Counted from the first letter of the stretch, positions 51,178 to 63,560 are shown. The stretch: DNA of 64,000 nt from a virus (IMGVR_UViG_3300011335_000809:1-64000), one strand, 5' to 3'. The notes: generated by a model not told the origin, from the letters alone. Translations and numbers: made by a program.

Positions 51178-51251
51178 TGGAGCGGGTAGAGGGAATCGAA
51201 CCCTCACATCAACCTTGGCAAGGTCGAAGGCTACCACTACATCATACCCGC
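51178..51251 (-). tRNA. tRNA-Gly(GCC)
   Basis: Cloverleaf, loop UUGCCAA, CCA end. Confidence 0.95.
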
Positions 51252-51303
51252 GATCTGAACATTAATATATAATCGAAACTAATCAACATACATTAATTTA
51301 AAA

Positions 51304-51378
51304 TGGTGGACCGTAAGAGAATCGAACTCTTCCCTAAAGCTTGCAAAGCTCCCGTGCTACCACTATCACTAACAGCCC
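51304..51378 (-). tRNA. tRNA-Ala(UGC)
   Basis: G3-U70, loop UUUGCAA, CCA. Confidence 0.92.
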
Positions 51379-51386
51379 ATTTAAAA

Positions 51387-51415
51387 ATCTTACACCAATA
51401 TATAGTGTTTGTCAA
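51387..51415 (-). promoter_or_regulatory. Sigma70-type promoter
   Basis: TTGACA-17-TAAGAT upstream of tRNA-Ala. Confidence 0.6.
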
Positions 51416-51673
51416 ACTAAAAATCAAATTGTATGACTACGACTTGCGAATATACGAGGATTTCACTATACTTTGTTCCATATGTCTATCTCGTCAACTT
51501 CAGTCTCCTCTACCAGCTAATAGGTAGCGTGCTACAATTCTATACACAAATAGTCAAATCTAAAAATCAACCCTATCCTATCTGGATCAGATTCGTCCGG
51601 GTCAGACATACAGGGGTGTATCGTGTCCCTCACGCTGTTGGACGTTTCCACCCAACACGCACATTTACTAAAA

Positions 51674-51750
51674 TGGTCGGGATGACAGGACTTGCACCTG
51701 CAACTTCCTGACTCCAGATCAGGCCGTCTCCTAATTGACAATACACCCCG
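51674..51750 (-). tRNA. tRNA-Pro(UGG), atypical anticodon loop UCUGGAG
   Basis: C1-G72 acceptor CGGGGUG, stem CCUGA/UCAGG, CCA. Confidence 0.75.
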
Positions 51751-51754
51751 AAAA

Positions 51755-51862
51755 TGGTCAGCGTAGTGGGATTTTCACCTGTCATATAAACATCTCTTTC
51801 AAGCCACACTCATTGTTCCCGTTTCGTTGGGAAATGACTCTTTAATGTTGGTCTACACGCTG
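51755..51862 (-). ncRNA. tRNA-like RNA with branched insert replacing anticodon loop
   Basis: Acceptor CAGCGUG/UACGCUG-A-CCA, D-like arm, weak T-stem, 108 nt. Confidence 0.6.
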
Positions 51863-51871
51863 ATTATAAAT

Positions 51872-51945
51872 TGGTTGGGGATGATGGAATCGAACCACCA
51901 CAAGCAGATTCAAAGTCTGCCGCACTACCATTATGCAAATCCCCA
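51872..51945 (-). tRNA. tRNA-Gln(UUG)
   Basis: Stem GCAGA/UCUGC, loop CUUUGAA, CCA. Confidence 0.95.
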
Positions 51946-51951
51946 GTTAAA

Positions 51952-52794
51952 TTACTTTTCATAAAGATTGATAAAATCTTTTCCGTATTTTGATGTCACA
52001 TAATCAATATACATCTTAATTTTGTGTTTGTCAATCACATTTAATTTAAATGGAAAAGAATTTATTTTTGCTTTATTTTTATTATCTAAATAACCTTTTA
52101 TTTCAAAATATTCATTTGTTGATTCAAGAATAAAGTCTGGATAAAAATTATAATTGTTATTATTGAACTTATAGGGGAATCCCTCAGTATTTCTTTTAAA
52201 TTTTATATTATGTTCTAAATTGAAAATTACCCACGCCAATTCCCAACTGCTATTACAATAATAACCTTTATACCATCCTTGTTTACCTCTTCCGCCTTTT
52301 TCACGATAACCTCCTCGTTTACCTTTCAAAAGTCCGTTTACTTTTACATATGTATTTCTACAAATTTGAGAACAATATATCTGTTTTGATTTTTCTGTTT
52401 TTAAAAAATTGTAATTACAATGTGGACATAATATAGATTTACGTTTTTTTACTCTAATCTGTTTTTTTGCTAATTCAGATAATCTTTTTTTGCCTTCTAT
52501 GTCCCATTTTTTGTGACCTCCAAACTTTTGGTTTTCAATAGATGCACATTTTGTAGAACAAAATTTATTATTTCTTCTAGAATATTCTAAATCAATATTG
52601 CAATATTCACACTTATTTGGATTTAGATTATATTTTTCTACTCTAAATAGTTTTAAACGTGGTGAAATTGTTTCTCCATTAAACTCTACAGAACATTTAT
52701 TAGAACAAAAATGATTGTTAGTTCTTTTTATTTCACTTTTATATTTTAAAAACTCAATATTACATTTTTTACAATTTACTAATATTTTACTCAT
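51952..52794 (-). CDS. Free-standing homing-endonuclease-like protein (Cys zinc-finger repeats + PD-(D/E)xK domain)
   Basis: CxxC...FCSxxC repeats; SSWE...YPDF...EIKG. Confidence 0.75.
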   Translation of the reverse strand: MSKILVNCKKCNIEFLKYKSEIKRTNNHFCSNKCSVEFNGETISPRLKLFRVEKYNLNPNKCEYCNIDLEYSRRNNKFCSTKCASIENQKFGGHKKWDIEGKKRLSELAKKQIRVKKRKSILCPHCNYNFLKTEKSKQIYCSQICRNTYVKVNGLLKGKRGGYREKGGRGKQGWYKGYYCNSSWELAWVIFNLEHNIKFKRNTEGFPYKFNNNNYNFYPDFILESTNEYFEIKGYLDNKNKAKINSFPFKLNVIDKHKIKMYIDYVTSKYGKDFINLYEK

Positions 52795-52856
52795 ACTAAT
52801 AAATAGTAATTTTGGAGCGTAAAATGAATTTTGAATCAAAATATTTTGTTTGATTC

Positions 52857-52931
52857 TGGTGCAGTAGGAGAGAATTGAACTCTCATTTCAAGTTTGGAAG
52901 ACTCACGTAATAGCCATTATACCACTACTGC
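52857..52931 (-). tRNA. tRNA-Gly(UCC)
   Basis: Loop CUUCCAA, CCA; A73 rather than U73. Confidence 0.9.
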
Positions 52932-53016
52932 ATTTTAATAAATTATTAGATGTTCAGTCATCAAATATTTGATGTGTACTATGAACCACGGACAGGTAAT
53001 CTAATTTCTCATAGCG

Positions 53017-53106
53017 CGGAGGCGAAGGGTGCTGCCCCCTCAGTGGCTTTTAGACCACGGCAGTTTAGCAAACTGCTGTAGAAACCTGACTATCTACGTC
53101 ACCTCC
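53017..53106 (-). tRNA. tRNA-Ser(GCU), CCA not encoded
   Basis: Loop UUGCUAA, long variable arm, G73. Confidence 0.88.
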
Positions 53107-61572: not shown

Positions 61573-61703
61573 GAAAAATTTAACGTCATATGTTTGTTTC
61601 ACCATATGACGGTGACTGAGGTTCTTCTTTCACCGTTACGTTCTAGTTATCCTCACCTATGCACAGGTAGAACGGCATTAGTCACTTCAGAAGACTTATA
61701 AAA

Positions 61704-61779
61704 TGGCTCCAAGAGAGGGCAACGATCCCCCAACCTTTCGGGTAACAACCGAATGCTCTACCAATTGAGCTATCTTGGA
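61704..61779 (-). tRNA. tRNA-Asn(GUU)
   Basis: Loop UUGUUAC, G73, CCA. Confidence 0.93.
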
Positions 61780-61801
61780 ATTAAAAATTAAAAATGTTTA
61801 C

Positions 61802-61970
61802 TGGATTTCAACGAACGTTCCATCTACTAATCATAACCTCGTCAGATTATAACATTCAATGTCTATCAGTGTCAATACATTACTTACTACTTCAACTATT
61901 GATTCAGATTCGAACTGAATTACTCCCGCTTATTCGTGCGGTTGTTTTACCAATTAAACTACGTTCGTTG
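61802..61970 (-). ncRNA. tRNA-like RNA with ~80-nt insert between T-arm and 3' acceptor strand
   Basis: CAACGAACG/CGUUCGUUG 9-bp helix, canonical D and T arms, 8-nt anticodon-like loop. Confidence 0.7.
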
Positions 61971-61995
61971 CCTTCACCTAATGTATTTGAAAAAA

Positions 61996-62070
61996 TGGCA
62001 AAGTGGGTGGGTAACGCTCCCACATAAAGCAGTTTTGGAGACTGCTGCATTTCTTGTCTGCCACCACCTT
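61996..62070 (-). tRNA. tRNA-Trp(CCA)
   Basis: Loop CUCCAAA, G73, CCA. Confidence 0.9.
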
Positions 62071-62129
62071 GTTAAAATGGTATCTCCACCGTTAATATTT
62101 CAGTGGCCGTACCTGTTACTCTCTGTAAA

Positions 62130-63200
62130 TTACGAAATTAATGTTGTTGATTCAGATTTTTTCTTTGCTTCTCTAACAGAGACATAATTGATGGTATTTT
62201 CAATTGAAATACCCACTTGTTCCGAAAGACGCAATCCACGATAATATTTTGTAGGAATTCCAACATACTCACTCATAGCTATTTCTTTACGTGTATCCTT
62301 GATAAATTTCATATTTTGAATTGGATACAAATTGTTATATCCAATTGAAGTTAGAATTCCATTACCAAATAAGTTCATATGATAATCCGTAATTACATTG
62401 TAATATTTAACTTCTTCCATCACTACACTCTTTTTTATCAAGATTATTTCTTCACCTTTTACATTAAATGTAATAGTGCCAATCGGTGTATCACTTGTCA
62501 TCGGATAAGTAAATTTACCAGCCTGTTTATTAAAAATACGATGTTGTACAATTGTCTTTAAATAAGAACCATCACTAAATTCCAATAGATTGTATTTGGT
62601 TGTTACTTCTGGCTGCTTTATATACAAAGGTTTTGCCGTATCAAACTTCGCTTCGTCAAAATTCCACACAATAATATCGTCGATATAATCAATGTCTTCA
62701 ATTGCTTTGGTTGTACCATCTGACAATGATACCAAAGTGCCTTCTGCTAAACACACAGAAACATATATCGATATATCTGTACCATATGCTGTTCCATTAA
62801 CATTTGTTGCAAATGCTCTAATATAGACTAGACCATTTGTTGGGCTTATGTTCTGATTGCTACACGAAAATGATCCAATTGAAGCCGTAGGATCCACATA
62901 AGCGGAATCTGTTGGAAGTGTTGGGTTTGGAGAATTGCTTGCTACGAATCCTCTAGATAATATCGGTGAATTTCCATCAGATACTACTGTTCCTACGGCG
63001 CTAAAGTCGTAAAAAGCGCCGCCACTAGCACTATCTGTGGTCACGACTGGCAGTAGCGCCTGTAACGCCGATTCTTCTTGTTGTGCACCACCTGCAATTT
63101 GTTCTTCATATCCTCGCATCATTTTGGAATAATTTTGCATTATTTCGTGTAAGGGTAACTTTTCTTTGTTCTGTTGATAATAAGTCTGCCAATGTATCAT
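62130..63200 (-). CDS. Fn3/Ig-like domain + Hint (intein-like) domain protein
   Basis: YIRAFATNVNGTAYG; CLAEGTLVSLSDG..KAIEDI (block A), TIVQHRI (block B), YYNV...LFGNGILTS (F/G without HN). Confidence 0.8.
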   Translation of the reverse strand: MIHWQTYYQQNKEKLPLHEIMQNYSKMMRGYEEQIAGGAQQEESALQALLPVVTTDSASGGAFYDFSAVGTVVSDGNSPILSRGFVASNSPNPTLPTDSAYVDPTASIGSFSCSNQNISPTNGLVYIRAFATNVNGTAYGTDISIYVSVCLAEGTLVSLSDGTTKAIEDIDYIDDIIVWNFDEAKFDTAKPLYIKQPEVTTKYNLLEFSDGSYLKTIVQHRIFNKQAGKFTYPMTSDTPIGTITFNVKGEEIILIKKSVVMEEVKYYNVITDYHMNLFGNGILTSIGYNNLYPIQNMKFIKDTRKEIAMSEYVGIPTKYYRGLRLSEQVGISIENTINYVSVREAKKKSESTTLIS

Positions 63201-63230
63201 ACATATATATATCCACCAACAATACTAAAA

Positions 63231-63305
63231 TGGTAGCCTATGCCGGTGCTGCCCCGGCTACTCTTGGATGAAAGCCAAGTGACTTAGCTGGTTGTCGAAT
63301 AGGCC
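63231..63305 (-). tRNA. tRNA-Glu(UUC)
   Basis: Loop CUUUCAU, CCA. Confidence 0.9.
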
Positions 63306-63312
63306 ATTAAAT

Positions 63313-63390
63313 TGGTGCTTCAGTGAGGATTCGAACCCCAAACTCAATGTCCGTAGCATTGCGTGATATATCCATTTTCACCACTGAAGC
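63313..63390 (-). tRNA. tRNA-Arg(ACG)
   Basis: Loop CUACGGA, CCA. Confidence 0.93.
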
Positions 63391-63396
63391 ATAAAT

Positions 63397-63472
63397 TGGG
63401 GTGATATACGAGTGCTGCCCTCGTTCCGTGAGTTTCACAAACTCAAATGCTAACTGTTACACCAATATCACC
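63397..63472 (-). tRNA. tRNA-His(GUG)
   Basis: G-1:C73, loop UUGUGAA, CCA. Confidence 0.92.
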
Positions 63473-63484
63473 ATTACTATAAAT

Positions 63485-63560
63485 TGGAGCCGAAGACAGG
63501 ACTTGAACCTGCAACCTGAACTTTACAAAAGTCCTGCTCTGCCAATTGAGCTACTTCGGC
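63485..63560 (-). tRNA. tRNA-Thr(UGU)
   Basis: Loop UUUGUAA, CCA. Confidence 0.95.

What the first reader, a model, noticed from the sequence alone, without database searches (positions are those of the whole stretch)
51178..63560. Two tRNA arrays partition the genetic code into non-overlapping amino-acid sets
Seen: 23 tRNAs cover 19 amino acids (no Met). Array 1 (51178-53547) has V, P, L, S, G, Q, A only. Array 2 (57376-63560) has T, H, R, E, W, N, Y, F, K, D, I, C only. There is no overlap, and each array has its own promoter, shared leader RNA motif and attenuator. Inference: two separately regulated tRNA replacement modules.
Basis: partly seen in the sequence, partly recalled or inferred. 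Interest (0 to 1): 0.7.

Follow-up and report, generated by a model that had tools for sequence, protein, structure and literature searches.

The report
Phage tRNA blocks with matched leader peptides
A giant freshwater phage keeps its tRNA genes in two blocks, and in front of each block sits a tiny gene spelled in the amino acids that block serves, followed by a switchable transcription stop. The phage therefore probably tunes each tRNA set to how well those codons are being read.

Summary
The tRNAs are real. I count 22 solid genes plus 2 doubtful ones, all on the minus strand at 51178-63560.

The lack of overlap is not significant by itself (p = 0.06-0.12), because only 3-4 amino acids have two tRNAs.

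The split is meaningful for another reason. Upstream of each block lies a short ORF, an intrinsic terminator and a competing helix.
- ORF 1 (53841-53788) ends in 13 residues drawn only from S, Q, P, A, L and G.
- ORF 2 (64026-63949) contains all 12 block-2 amino acids.
- Pooled leader-versus-block association: odds ratio 93, p = 3e-9. Cross-controls give p about 1.

About 95 related loci keep both blocks and both leaders. A divergent relative (L110) has one mixed 13-tRNA block, and its leader holds exactly those 13 amino acids.

Best reading: two leader-peptide attenuator modules that feed back on tRNA supply. Caveats:
- Strong promoters lie downstream of each terminator.
- Further promoters lie inside the blocks.
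- The Lys codon in leader 2 does not match the phage tRNA-Lys.
- There is no direct evidence of translation.

I found no publication describing this. Earlier runs of this scan reported the same system in other phage genomes.

The parts
63949..64000 (-). Leader ORF 2. The full ORF is G000 64026-63949 and its start lies 26 nt beyond the window. It encodes 25 aa, MRVQYTHIKRWDTFTNCECVGGDIV. The core YTHIKRWDTFTNCEC holds all 12 block-2 amino acids. The last codons, GGT GAT ATT GTA, form the 5' arm of the antiterminator.
   Evidence: It is the only one of 600 short ORFs in the record that holds all 12 amino acids. A random 24-mer does so with P = 3.4e-4.
63885..63932 (-). Block-2 attenuator. The antiterminator 3' arm ACAATATCAACCG overlaps the terminator stem AACCGTCAC/GTGACGGTT (63917-63892), which is followed by a U-run.
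   Evidence: Terminator found. It is 97.4% paired with 3 compensated pairs, and 0 of 500 shuffles reach that score. The antiterminator is 92.6% paired but invariant.
63759..63876 (-). Two sigma70-like promoters downstream of the terminator: TTGACG-16-TAAAGT with TG at 63876-63849, and TTGACA-16-TAGACT at 63786-63759.
   Evidence: Both are conserved in relatives.
63614..63741 (-). Two-hairpin leader RNA, block-2 copy. Hairpin A is at 63741-63714. Hairpin B is at 63656-63618 with the invariant loop GUUAUGCUGAAAUACAGA.
   Evidence: Hairpin B is 98.2% paired with 3 compensated pairs, and 0 of 500 shuffles reach that score.
63231..63560 (-). tRNA-Thr(UGU) 63485-63560, His(GUG) 63397-63471, Arg(ACG) 63313-63390 and Glu(UUC) 63231-63305.
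   Evidence: His and Glu have the odd T-loop GGCAGCA.
61155..62070 (-). tRNA-Trp 61996-62070, Asn 61704-61779, Tyr 61487-61572 and Phe 61155-61230. Also a doubtful Ile-like gene at 61245-61321 and a consensus promoter at 61875-61846.
59088..60538 (-). tRNA-Lys(CUU) 60461-60538, Asp(GUC) 60224-60296, Ile(GAU) 59242-59319 and Arg(UCU) 59088-59164. Promoter-like sites at 60605 and 59410.
57376..57466 (-). tRNA-Cys(GCA) with a 20-nt variable arm. Two ORFs separate it from the rest of block 2.
   Evidence: Cys occupies the same position in relatives. Leader 2 has two Cys codons.
53851..53879 (-). Promoter P1 of leader 1, TTGATT-17-TATATT. The ATG lies 9 nt after the -10 element.
   Evidence: Read. 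The same geometry (-10 element, 7-9 nt, then ATG) is seen at leader 2 and in L110. A TATATATT-type motif precedes many genes of this phage.
53788..53841 (-). Leader ORF 1, 17 aa, MNLISQPSQASQLPSGS. The last 13 residues are all S, Q, P, A, L or G. An ACAACC inside the ORF can pair with the downstream GGUUGU.
   Evidence: A random 16-mer has a run of 13 or more with P = 2e-5. Among relatives, five of the eight variant codons in the core change only the third base.
53725..53787 (-). Block-1 attenuator. GUGAGUGGUUGU sits directly after the stop codon and can pair with the 5' arm of the terminator AACCCGUCA/UGACGGGUU (53760-53730). A U-run follows.
   Evidence: This antiterminator is weak and only partly conserved.
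53583..53715 (-). Promoter P2, TTGACA-16-TAAATT with TG (53715-53688), and the two-hairpin leader RNA. Hairpin A is at 53672-53646 and hairpin B at 53621-53583.
51178..53547 (-). Block 1: Val(UAC) 53472-53547, Pro(UGG) 53386-53461, Leu(UAG) 53294-53378, Ser(UGA) 53194-53278, Ser(GCU) 53017-53106, Gly(UCC) 52857-52931, Gln(UUG) 51872-51945, Ala(UGC) 51304-51378 and Gly(GCC) 51178-51251. Also a doubtful Pro-like gene at 51674-51750, an HNH ORF at 51952-52839, and internal promoters at 53174 and 51415.
49425..49809 (-). Phage tmRNA. It follows block 1 in the window and in relatives. Here a methyltransferase ORF (49839-51170) lies between them.
   Evidence: 106 bits. Searches show it after Gly(GCC) in relatives, with tag peptides ending ALAA.

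Best explanation
The window is part of an uncultured freshwater jumbo phage. Its roughly 22 tRNA genes lie in two syntenic blocks that are conserved across a phage family.

Each block is headed by the same series of elements:
1. A promoter whose -10 element sits 7-9 nt before an ATG.
2. A short ORF whose codons 'call the roll' of the amino acids carried by the tRNAs of that block.
3. An intrinsic terminator whose 5' arm can pair instead with a segment at or just after the end of the ORF.
4. One or two strong sigma70-type promoters.
5. A conserved two-hairpin RNA.
6. The tRNA genes. Block 1 is also followed by a tmRNA.

Proposed mechanism (inferred, trp/his/thr-type attenuation):
- When every codon of the leader is read quickly, the ribosome reaches the stop codon and covers the antiterminator arm. 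The terminator forms and transcription from the upstream promoter ends.
- When any tRNA of the set is scarce, the ribosome stalls earlier. The antiterminator then forms and transcription runs on into the block.
- The result is negative feedback that tops up the tRNA set being decoded slowly, on top of basal transcription from the downstream promoters.

On this reading the amino-acid partition is simply the wiring diagram: which tRNAs answer to which sensor.

Shown: the inventory, the synteny, the composition match, the terminators and the covariation of leader with block content. Inferred: translation of the leaders, stalling, readthrough and the benefit to the phage.
For: 1. Composition match. 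By amino-acid type, counted as both / block only / leader only / neither:
   - block 1: 6/1/2/11, p = 0.0044
   - block 2: 12/0/3/5, p = 0.0036
   - L110: 13/0/2/5, p = 0.0014
   - pooled: odds ratio 93, p = 2.7e-9
   - swapped leader/block controls: p = 0.999

2. Genome-wide control. Of 600 short ORFs in the record, only leader 2 holds all 12 block-2 amino acids. Only leader 1 and one Leu/Val-rich ORF have a run of 13 or more block-1 residues.

3. Conservation. A 20-mer of the leader RNA retrieved 17 viral and 78 metagenomic loci (two of the latter are chance hits). They share the same tRNA order and the same leaders.

4. Variation in leader 2. Of 15 distinct full-length leader-2 peptides, 14 keep all 12 amino acids although positions vary. 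His sits at residue 4 or 7, and Asp and Asn swap places. Many differences are synonymous third-base changes.

5. Co-variation with block content. L110 and L093 have one mixed block: Thr, Ala, Ile, Gly, Pro, Tyr, Ser, Gln, Met, Glu, His, Cys, Asp. Their leader, MMSNYTTINQAECPSTDAHLGG, contains all 13 and lacks K, R, W, F and V. A random 21-mer does this with P = 4e-5.

6. RNA switch.
   - The terminator is supported by compensatory changes.
   - The antiterminator 5' arm UGAUAUUGU is invariant even where it is read in a different frame or holds the stop codon, as in L040 and L093.
   - Folds with a stalled ribosome at codons 9-11 give the antiterminator as the MFE. Folds with a ribosome at the stop codon give the terminator.

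7. Start-site context. Phage genes here generally lack Shine-Dalgarno motifs (5 of 66) and have the same TATAT-rich context before the ATG. The leaders therefore look like ordinary translated starts.

8. RNA-library contigs. Contigs from RNA libraries of two studies span the end of leader ORF 1, the terminator, P2, the hairpins and the tRNAs (X15 record 2 and X16 record 10). This is a weak hint only, because contigs show neither ends nor strand and DNA can be present in such libraries.
Against: - Conserved strong promoters lie downstream of each terminator (53715, 63876, 63786). At least five more promoter-like sites lie inside the blocks (61875, 60605, 59410, 53174, 51415). An attenuator can therefore control only part of the output.
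- The antiterminators have no compensatory support. The block-1 antiterminator is short and partly variable.
- In static folds only stalls at about codons 9-11 favour the antiterminator.
- Each amino acid appears only once to three times, unlike the codon runs of classical attenuators.
- The match is imperfect. Leader 1 lacks Val in most lineages and has Asn and Ile. Leader 2 has Val, Gln and Gly, partly in the helix-forming tail.
- The Lys codon in leader 2 is AAA, while the phage tRNA-Lys is CUU here and in L002. It is AAG where the tRNA is UUU.
- In one lineage (L015, L087, L109) leader 1 is the tail of a 60-66-aa ORF and carries two Glu.
- L017 lacks leader 1, and L046 has the hairpin RNA without any attenuator.
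- There is no ribosome-profiling, 3'-end or reporter evidence, and the host is unknown.
Confidence: 0.65

Rival explanations
1. The partition is only inherited gene order. Two tRNA clusters are passed on as blocks and expressed constitutively from their sigma70-type promoters. The short ORF and terminator merely close the upstream transcription unit, and the composition match has no function.
For: - The non-overlap is not significant by itself (p = 0.06-0.12).
- Strong promoters lie downstream of each terminator and inside the blocks.
- Synteny alone explains conservation among close relatives.
- The antiterminators lack covariation.
Against: - The leader/block match has pooled p = 2.7e-9, and swapped controls give p about 1.
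- Leader 2 is unique among 600 short ORFs.
- All 12 amino acids are retained through positional swaps in 14 of 15 variants.
- The leader changes to match the mixed block in L110.
- The upstream genes differ between lineages, while the leader and terminator stay fixed to the block.
Confidence: 0.15
2. The leader ORFs do sense decoding of the block's codons but act by another route than intrinsic-terminator attenuation. Possible routes are Rho or transcript-stability effects, coupling to processing of the tRNA precursor, or recruitment of the phage tmRNA. Alternatively they sense the host's aminoacyl-tRNA pool rather than the phage tRNAs.
For: - The Lys codon and anticodon do not match.
- The block-1 antiterminator is weak.
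- The tmRNA always follows block 1.
- A conserved two-hairpin RNA of unknown role lies between promoter and tRNAs, and it also exists without an attenuator in L046.
Against: - A canonical terminator with a U-run sits at a fixed short distance after each leader stop codon.
- The segment overlapping the end of the ORF is complementary to the terminator's 5' arm in all three leader types.
Confidence: 0.12
3. The short ORFs encode functional micropeptides, or are not translated at all and are conserved as RNA. Their resemblance to the tRNA sets is then incidental.
For: - The leader-1 core is nearly invariant at the nucleotide level.
- In one lineage it is part of a longer ORF.
- The 3' part of leader 2 is conserved as RNA across reading frames.
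Against: - Many changes are third-base synonymous, and replacements stay within the block's set.
- Peptides as different as leader 1, leader 2 and the L110 leader share nothing except the match to their block.
Confidence: 0.06

Closest known systems
Multivalent leader-peptide attenuators of enterobacterial amino-acid operons (thr leader: Thr+Ile; ilvGMEDA leader: Ile/Leu/Val; also trpL, hisL, pheL) and the pheST (pheM) attenuator of Phe-tRNA synthetase
   Same: A short ORF lies in the 5' leader and its codons are cognate to what the downstream genes supply. An intrinsic terminator has a 5' arm that can pair with a segment at the end of the ORF. There is a possible 1:2 helix inside the ORF. Ribosome position would decide which structure forms.
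   Different: The regulated genes are tRNAs (and a tmRNA), not enzymes. The leader lists 6-13 different amino acids once to three times each, instead of runs of one to three amino acids. Strong promoters lie downstream of the terminator. The element is phage-borne. Nothing has been tested experimentally.
Phage tRNA gene clusters (T4, T5, cyanophage and 'huge phage' clusters)
   Same: The tRNA genes are clustered on one strand and interspersed with homing-endonuclease-type ORFs (HNH, Hint-like). The anticodons fit the phage's A/U-rich codon usage. A tmRNA is present, as reported for huge phages (my own knowledge).
   Different: As far as I could find, no leader-peptide sensor has been described for those clusters. 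Here two blocks each have a matched leader and a shared two-hairpin 5' RNA.
Inducible tRNA L-array (trn operon) of Anabaena sp. PCC 7120 (PMC8421152, PMC10272220)
   Same: An accessory tRNA array whose expression responds to impaired translation.
   Different: Control there works by the repressor TrcR binding repeats over the -10 element and the transcription start. Neither paper mentions a leader peptide or attenuation. Here the sensor would be a translated leader with a terminator.
T-box riboswitches
   Same: A leader RNA that senses tRNA status and switches between a terminator and an antiterminator.
   Different: Rfam gives no T-box match. There is no specifier loop or T-box sequence. Here an in-frame ORF lists many codons, and the regulated genes are the tRNAs themselves.

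Membership tests
Ribosome-mediated (leader-peptide) transcription attenuator | A short ORF in the transcribed leader, close to a promoter | tested here: met
   The ORFs are 17 and 25 codons long. The ATG lies 7-9 nt after a -10-like element. They are conserved in about 95 loci. That the promoter is active is inferred.
Ribosome-mediated (leader-peptide) transcription attenuator | Regulatory codons cognate to the product of the regulated genes | tested here: met
   The amino-acid match has pooled p = 2.7e-9. At codon level all leader-2 core codons can be read by block-2 anticodons except Lys AAA against CUU.
Ribosome-mediated (leader-peptide) transcription attenuator | An intrinsic terminator between the leader ORF and the regulated genes | tested here: met
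   The terminator at 63917-63892 comes, with compensatory pairs.
Ribosome-mediated (leader-peptide) transcription attenuator | A mutually exclusive antiterminator whose formation depends on ribosome position | tested here: inconclusive
   The complementary arm overlaps the ORF end or stop codon in all three leader types and is 92.6% paired, but it shows no covariation. MFE modelling supports it only for stalls near codons 9-11. The block-1 helix is weak.
Ribosome-mediated (leader-peptide) transcription attenuator | The regulated genes depend on readthrough, with no independent promoter | tested here: not met
   Conserved sigma70-like promoters lie downstream of both terminators and inside the blocks. 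At most part of the expression can be attenuator-controlled.
Ribosome-mediated (leader-peptide) transcription attenuator | Leader translation and stall-dependent readthrough demonstrated | not testable with these tools
   Only contigs from RNA libraries bridge the terminator. There is no start, end or ribosome data.
Phage tRNA gene cluster | Several tRNA genes clustered in a phage genome | tested here: met
   The record is an IMG/VR virus record. Tail-fibre genes are present.
T-box riboswitch | Specifier loop and conserved T-box sequence (Rfam model) | tested here: not met
   There is no T-box hit at E <= 1 in 48000-64000.
TrcR-type repressor control of tRNA L-arrays (Anabaena) | Tandem 9-nt repeats over the -10 element and transcription start, and a TrcR homologue | not tested
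   The mechanism was read from the papers only. I did not search for the repeats or for a TrcR homologue here.

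The most novel reading that the evidence does not exclude
The leaders are 'roll-call' sensors of tRNA depletion. Each one lists once every amino acid whose tRNA the block can replace. Loss of any single host tRNA, for example through a host anticodon nuclease used as anti-phage defence, would stall the ribosome and switch on the matching replacement block together with the phage tmRNA. The odd T- and D-loops of many of these tRNAs would then help them escape the same nucleases. This would be a counter-defence circuit built from a trp-style attenuator.
Probability: 0.25. Interest if true: 0.9.

Novelty: new variant of a known kind. Interest (0 to 1): 0.8.

Why it matters
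tRNA genes are usually thought to be controlled at the promoter, by growth rate, by the stringent response or by a repressor. A translated leader that reads one codon for each tRNA of the downstream block would be a direct feedback from decoding speed to tRNA synthesis. It would also be the most multivalent attenuator known, covering up to 13 amino acids in 22 codons. It would explain why phage tRNA genes are grouped as they are, give a way to predict which tRNAs are co-regulated, and offer a compact natural sensor of tRNA availability. It can be tested with simple reporter fusions.

Tried and rejected
- Megablast of 49000-64000 against the phage collection found no match.
- A 17-mer scan of viral contigs added only chance hits, L018-L033. 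L052 and L062 from the metagenome scan are also chance hits.
- ARAGORN in intron mode or at low thresholds gave spurious calls, such as a Tyr across the tmRNA and a Ser at 72199.
- tRNAs of relatives have no BLAST counterpart in the odd tRNA-like elements of the window, so I did not count those elements.
- Pfam and PHROGs gave nothing for most ORFs between the tRNAs. The exceptions are a methyltransferase and an HNH endonuclease.
- I wanted to test whether L050 and L077, whose leader lacks Cys, also lack tRNA-Cys. The L050 record is not held and L077 is too short, so this was not tested.
- Antiterminator covariation: none found.
- Partition logic by aminoacyl-tRNA synthetase class or by second codon base: no pattern by inspection.
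- RNA-library contigs leave some parts of the stretch uncovered (54001-54500 and most of the HNH and Hint-like ORFs), while the tmRNA and tRNA regions are covered.
- Literature searches for leader-peptide control of tRNA genes found nothing. This is not proof of absence.

Full report
**What the DNA is.** The window is the first 64 kb of a 115,569-bp IMG/VR virus record that CheckV rates about 34% complete. It is therefore a fragment of a jumbo phage, with about 31% G+C. Tail-fibre genes are recognisable and most other proteins have no family. DNA runs from river and lake metagenomes hold the stretch.

**Checking the observation.**
- ARAGORN at default settings finds 16 tRNAs, all on the minus strand between 51178 and 63560.
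- Rfam adds His and, weakly, Ser(UGA), plus a tmRNA at 49425-49809.
- Reading the strand showed further cloverleaves with unusual T-loops, such as GGCAGCA, AGCGUUA, CGCAUUA and GGCGGAA.
- A relaxed cloverleaf scan and MFE folds recover His, Glu, Phe, Cys, Ser(GCU), Tyr, Ser(UGA) and Asp.
- Relatives carry canonical versions at the same positions.

I accept 22 tRNAs, 9 in block 1 and 13 in block 2. I regard two as doubtful: an Ile-like gene at 61245-61321 and a Pro-like gene at 51674-51750.

**Is the non-overlap more than chance?** Not by itself. Only Gly, Ser, Arg and perhaps Ile have two genes. With random order the blocks share no amino acid in 6% of trials (23 genes) or 12% (22 genes).

The 'arrays' are also not compact operons:
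- An HNH endonuclease gene and a Hint-like ORF are inserted in them, a plus-strand ORF lies between Asp and Ile, and two ORFs precede Cys.
- Promoter-like sites, several of them near-consensus, lie inside both blocks: 61875, 60605, 59410, 53174 and 51415.

**What heads each block.** Both blocks begin with the same 5' RNA. A 24-mer occurs exactly twice in the window, with 0 expected by chance, inside a 59-nt repeat. A second box lies upstream of it.
- Hairpin B has an invariant 18-nt loop. Its stem is 98.2% paired with three compensated pairs, and 0 of 500 shuffles reach that score.
- The 4-bp stem of hairpin A also co-varies between lineages: GGGG/CCCC, GGGC/GCCC, GGGU/ACCC and AGGU/ACCU.

Upstream of this RNA lies a conserved sigma70-type promoter with an extended -10 element (two promoters for block 2). 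Upstream of that lies an intrinsic terminator.

- Leader 1 (53841-53788) reads MNLISQPSQASQLPSGS.
- Leader 2 (G000 64026-63949, starting 26 nt beyond the window) reads MRVQYTHIKRWDTFTNCECVGGDIV.

**The match between leader and block.**
- Leader 1 ends in 13 residues drawn only from block-1 amino acids.
- The core of leader 2 contains every one of the 12 block-2 amino acids.
- Among the 600 short ORFs of the record, leader 2 is the only one with all 12. Only leader 1 and one Leu/Val-rich ORF have a block-1 run of 13 or more.
- Random peptides with this phage's composition do so at 3.4e-4 and 2e-5 respectively.
- By amino-acid type the association is p = 0.004 for each block, and the swapped controls give p = 0.999.

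**Relatives.** A 20-mer of hairpin B retrieved 17 viral and 78 metagenomic loci, mostly from lakes. The tRNA order is kept:
- Block 1: Val-Pro-Leu-(Leu)-Ser-Ser-Gly-Gln-Ala-Gly-tmRNA.
- Block 2: Thr-(His)-Arg-(Glu)-Trp-Asn-(Asn)-Tyr-Phe-Lys-(Asp)-Ile-Arg...Cys.

Leader 1 is nearly invariant. Its differences are mainly third-base changes, and an NLI-to-NSV variant adds Val.

Leader 2 exists in 15 distinct full-length forms, and 14 of them keep all 12 amino acids even though positions move. His sits at residue 4 or 7, Asp and Asn exchange places, and Arg, Thr and Cys shift.

Exceptions:
- A Val gene sits inside block 2 of L048.
- L017 has extra Ile(UAU), Leu(CAA) and Val between the blocks and no leader 1.
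- One lineage has leader 1 as the tail of a 60-66-aa ORF.
- L046 has the hairpin RNA but no attenuator.

**The decisive comparison.** L110 and L093 are more distant. There the hairpin RNA is followed by one mixed block: Thr, Ala, Ile, Gly, Pro, Tyr, Ser, Gln, Met, Glu, His, Cys, Asp (ARAGORN and Rfam agree). Its leader, MMSNYTTINQAECPSTDAHLGG, holds all 13, including an internal Met. It lacks K, R, W, F and V, which have no tRNA in that block. A random 21-mer does this with P = 4e-5. Pooled over the three leader types the odds ratio is 93, p = 2.7e-9. The opposite is observed.

**The switch.**
- For block 2 and L110, the last codons of the ORF (..GGUGAUAUUGU..) are complementary to ACAAUAUCAACCG. 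That segment overlaps the 5' arm of the terminator.
- The terminator itself is 97.4% paired with three compensated pairs.
- The competing helix is 92.6% paired but invariant, so covariation neither supports nor contradicts it.
- The arm UGAUAUUGU is conserved even where it is read in another frame or contains the stop codon, as in L040 and L093. This argues for a constraint at the RNA level.
- For block 1 the arm GUGAGUGGUUGU follows the stop codon directly. It pairs less well, and an ACAACC inside the ORF could sequester it.
- Constrained folds give the terminator when a ribosome sits at the stop codon. They give the antiterminator as MFE only for stalls near codons 9-11.

**Are the leaders translated?** There is no direct evidence. 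Only 5 of 66 long ORFs of this phage have a Shine-Dalgarno motif. Many start a few bases after a TATAT-rich element, as the leaders do, so the leaders have the ordinary start context of this genome. Contigs from RNA libraries of two independent studies run from the end of leader ORF 1, or from inside it, across the terminator and P2 into the tRNAs. This is compatible with readthrough transcripts but is only a weak hint.

**Reading.** The partition is best understood as the wiring of two feedback modules of the trp/his/thr attenuator kind, applied to tRNA genes. Points against a simple version:
- Promoters lie downstream of the terminators and inside the blocks, so control can only be partial.
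- Sensor codons occur singly rather than in runs.
- Leader 1 has Asn and Ile; leader 2 has Val, Gln and Gly.
- The Lys codon AAA faces a phage tRNA-Lys(CUU).

**Known or new?** Two full-text searches found no account of leader-peptide control of tRNA genes. The nearest published case of an inducible tRNA array is the Anabaena trn operon. It is controlled by the repressor TrcR at the promoter, and neither paper mentions attenuation. Earlier agents of this scan reported the same kind of system in other phage genomes. That is not independent evidence, but it means this is one instance of a recurrent pattern. I class it as a new variant of a known kind of regulation.

Noticed in passing
window 63397-63471, 63231-63305, 53017-53106, 61996-62070, 61487-61572, 61155-61230, 57376-57466: Seven tRNAs have non-canonical T-loops: GGCAGCA in His, Glu and Ser(GCU); AGCGUUA in Trp; CGCAUUA in Tyr; GGCGGAA in Phe; AGCGUAA in Cys. 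Their D-loops are unusual too, and tRNA-Cys has a 20-nt variable arm. Standard detectors miss most of them. Relatives often have canonical versions.
   Followed up: partly
window 51755-51862, 60766-60883, 61330-61479, 58886-59081, 59172-59236: These are tRNA-like RNAs with a good acceptor stem and, in most, an encoded CCA end, but with large insertions or no clear anticodon arm. Two share a ..GGUGAAA(G/A)UCC.. T-arm-like motif. tRNAs of relatives have no BLAST counterpart here.
   Followed up: partly
window 49425-49809 (-): A phage-encoded tmRNA (Rfam, 106 bits) that ARAGORN misses in this window. In relatives it follows Gly(GCC) directly, with tag peptides such as AEDNVISYNFTSREAVALAA. It may belong to the block-1 transcription unit.
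   Followed up: partly
window 62130-63200 (-) and 51952-52839 (-): An ORF with a Hint/intein-like segment (C-L-A-E-G-T-L-V.. to ..G-N-G-I-L-T-S) lies inside block 2. An HNH endonuclease ORF lies inside block 1. Both are probably mobile insertions. Their positions differ between relatives.
   Followed up: no
blocks 1 and 2 as wholes: Block 1 holds 6 of the 8 four-codon 'family box' amino acids plus Gln, mostly with U34 anticodons. Block 2 holds nearly all the two-codon amino acids plus Thr and Arg. The split is 6/7 against 2/12, Fisher p = 0.006, tested post hoc.
   Followed up: partly
G000 64002-64000 (Lys codon of leader 2) vs window 60461-60538: The Lys codon of leader 2 is AAA where the phage tRNA-Lys is CUU (G000, L002). 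It is AAG where the tRNA is UUU (L006, L041, L061). This is the reverse of what a codon-matched sensor predicts. The sample is small.
   Followed up: partly
window 60893-61150 (-) and 61572-61700 (-): These are ORF-free stretches with strong local pairing between tRNA genes. They may be further non-coding RNAs. Rfam gives no match.
   Followed up: no
L110 6622-6697 (-): In the distant relative, an RNA just upstream of tRNA-Ala scores 37.9 bits against Rfam CyVA-1. The gathering score is 41.4 and E = 1e-5.
   Followed up: no
whole record G000: Only 5 of 66 long ORFs have a Shine-Dalgarno-like motif. Many ATGs lie a few bases after a TATAT-rich element. This suggests a host with SD-independent initiation or very short 5' UTRs.
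   Followed up: partly
L002 2645-2720, L047, L050, L077, L098: In several relatives ARAGORN calls a tRNA with a four-base anticodon (CUCU, an 8-nt loop) at the position of His or after Thr.
   Followed up: no
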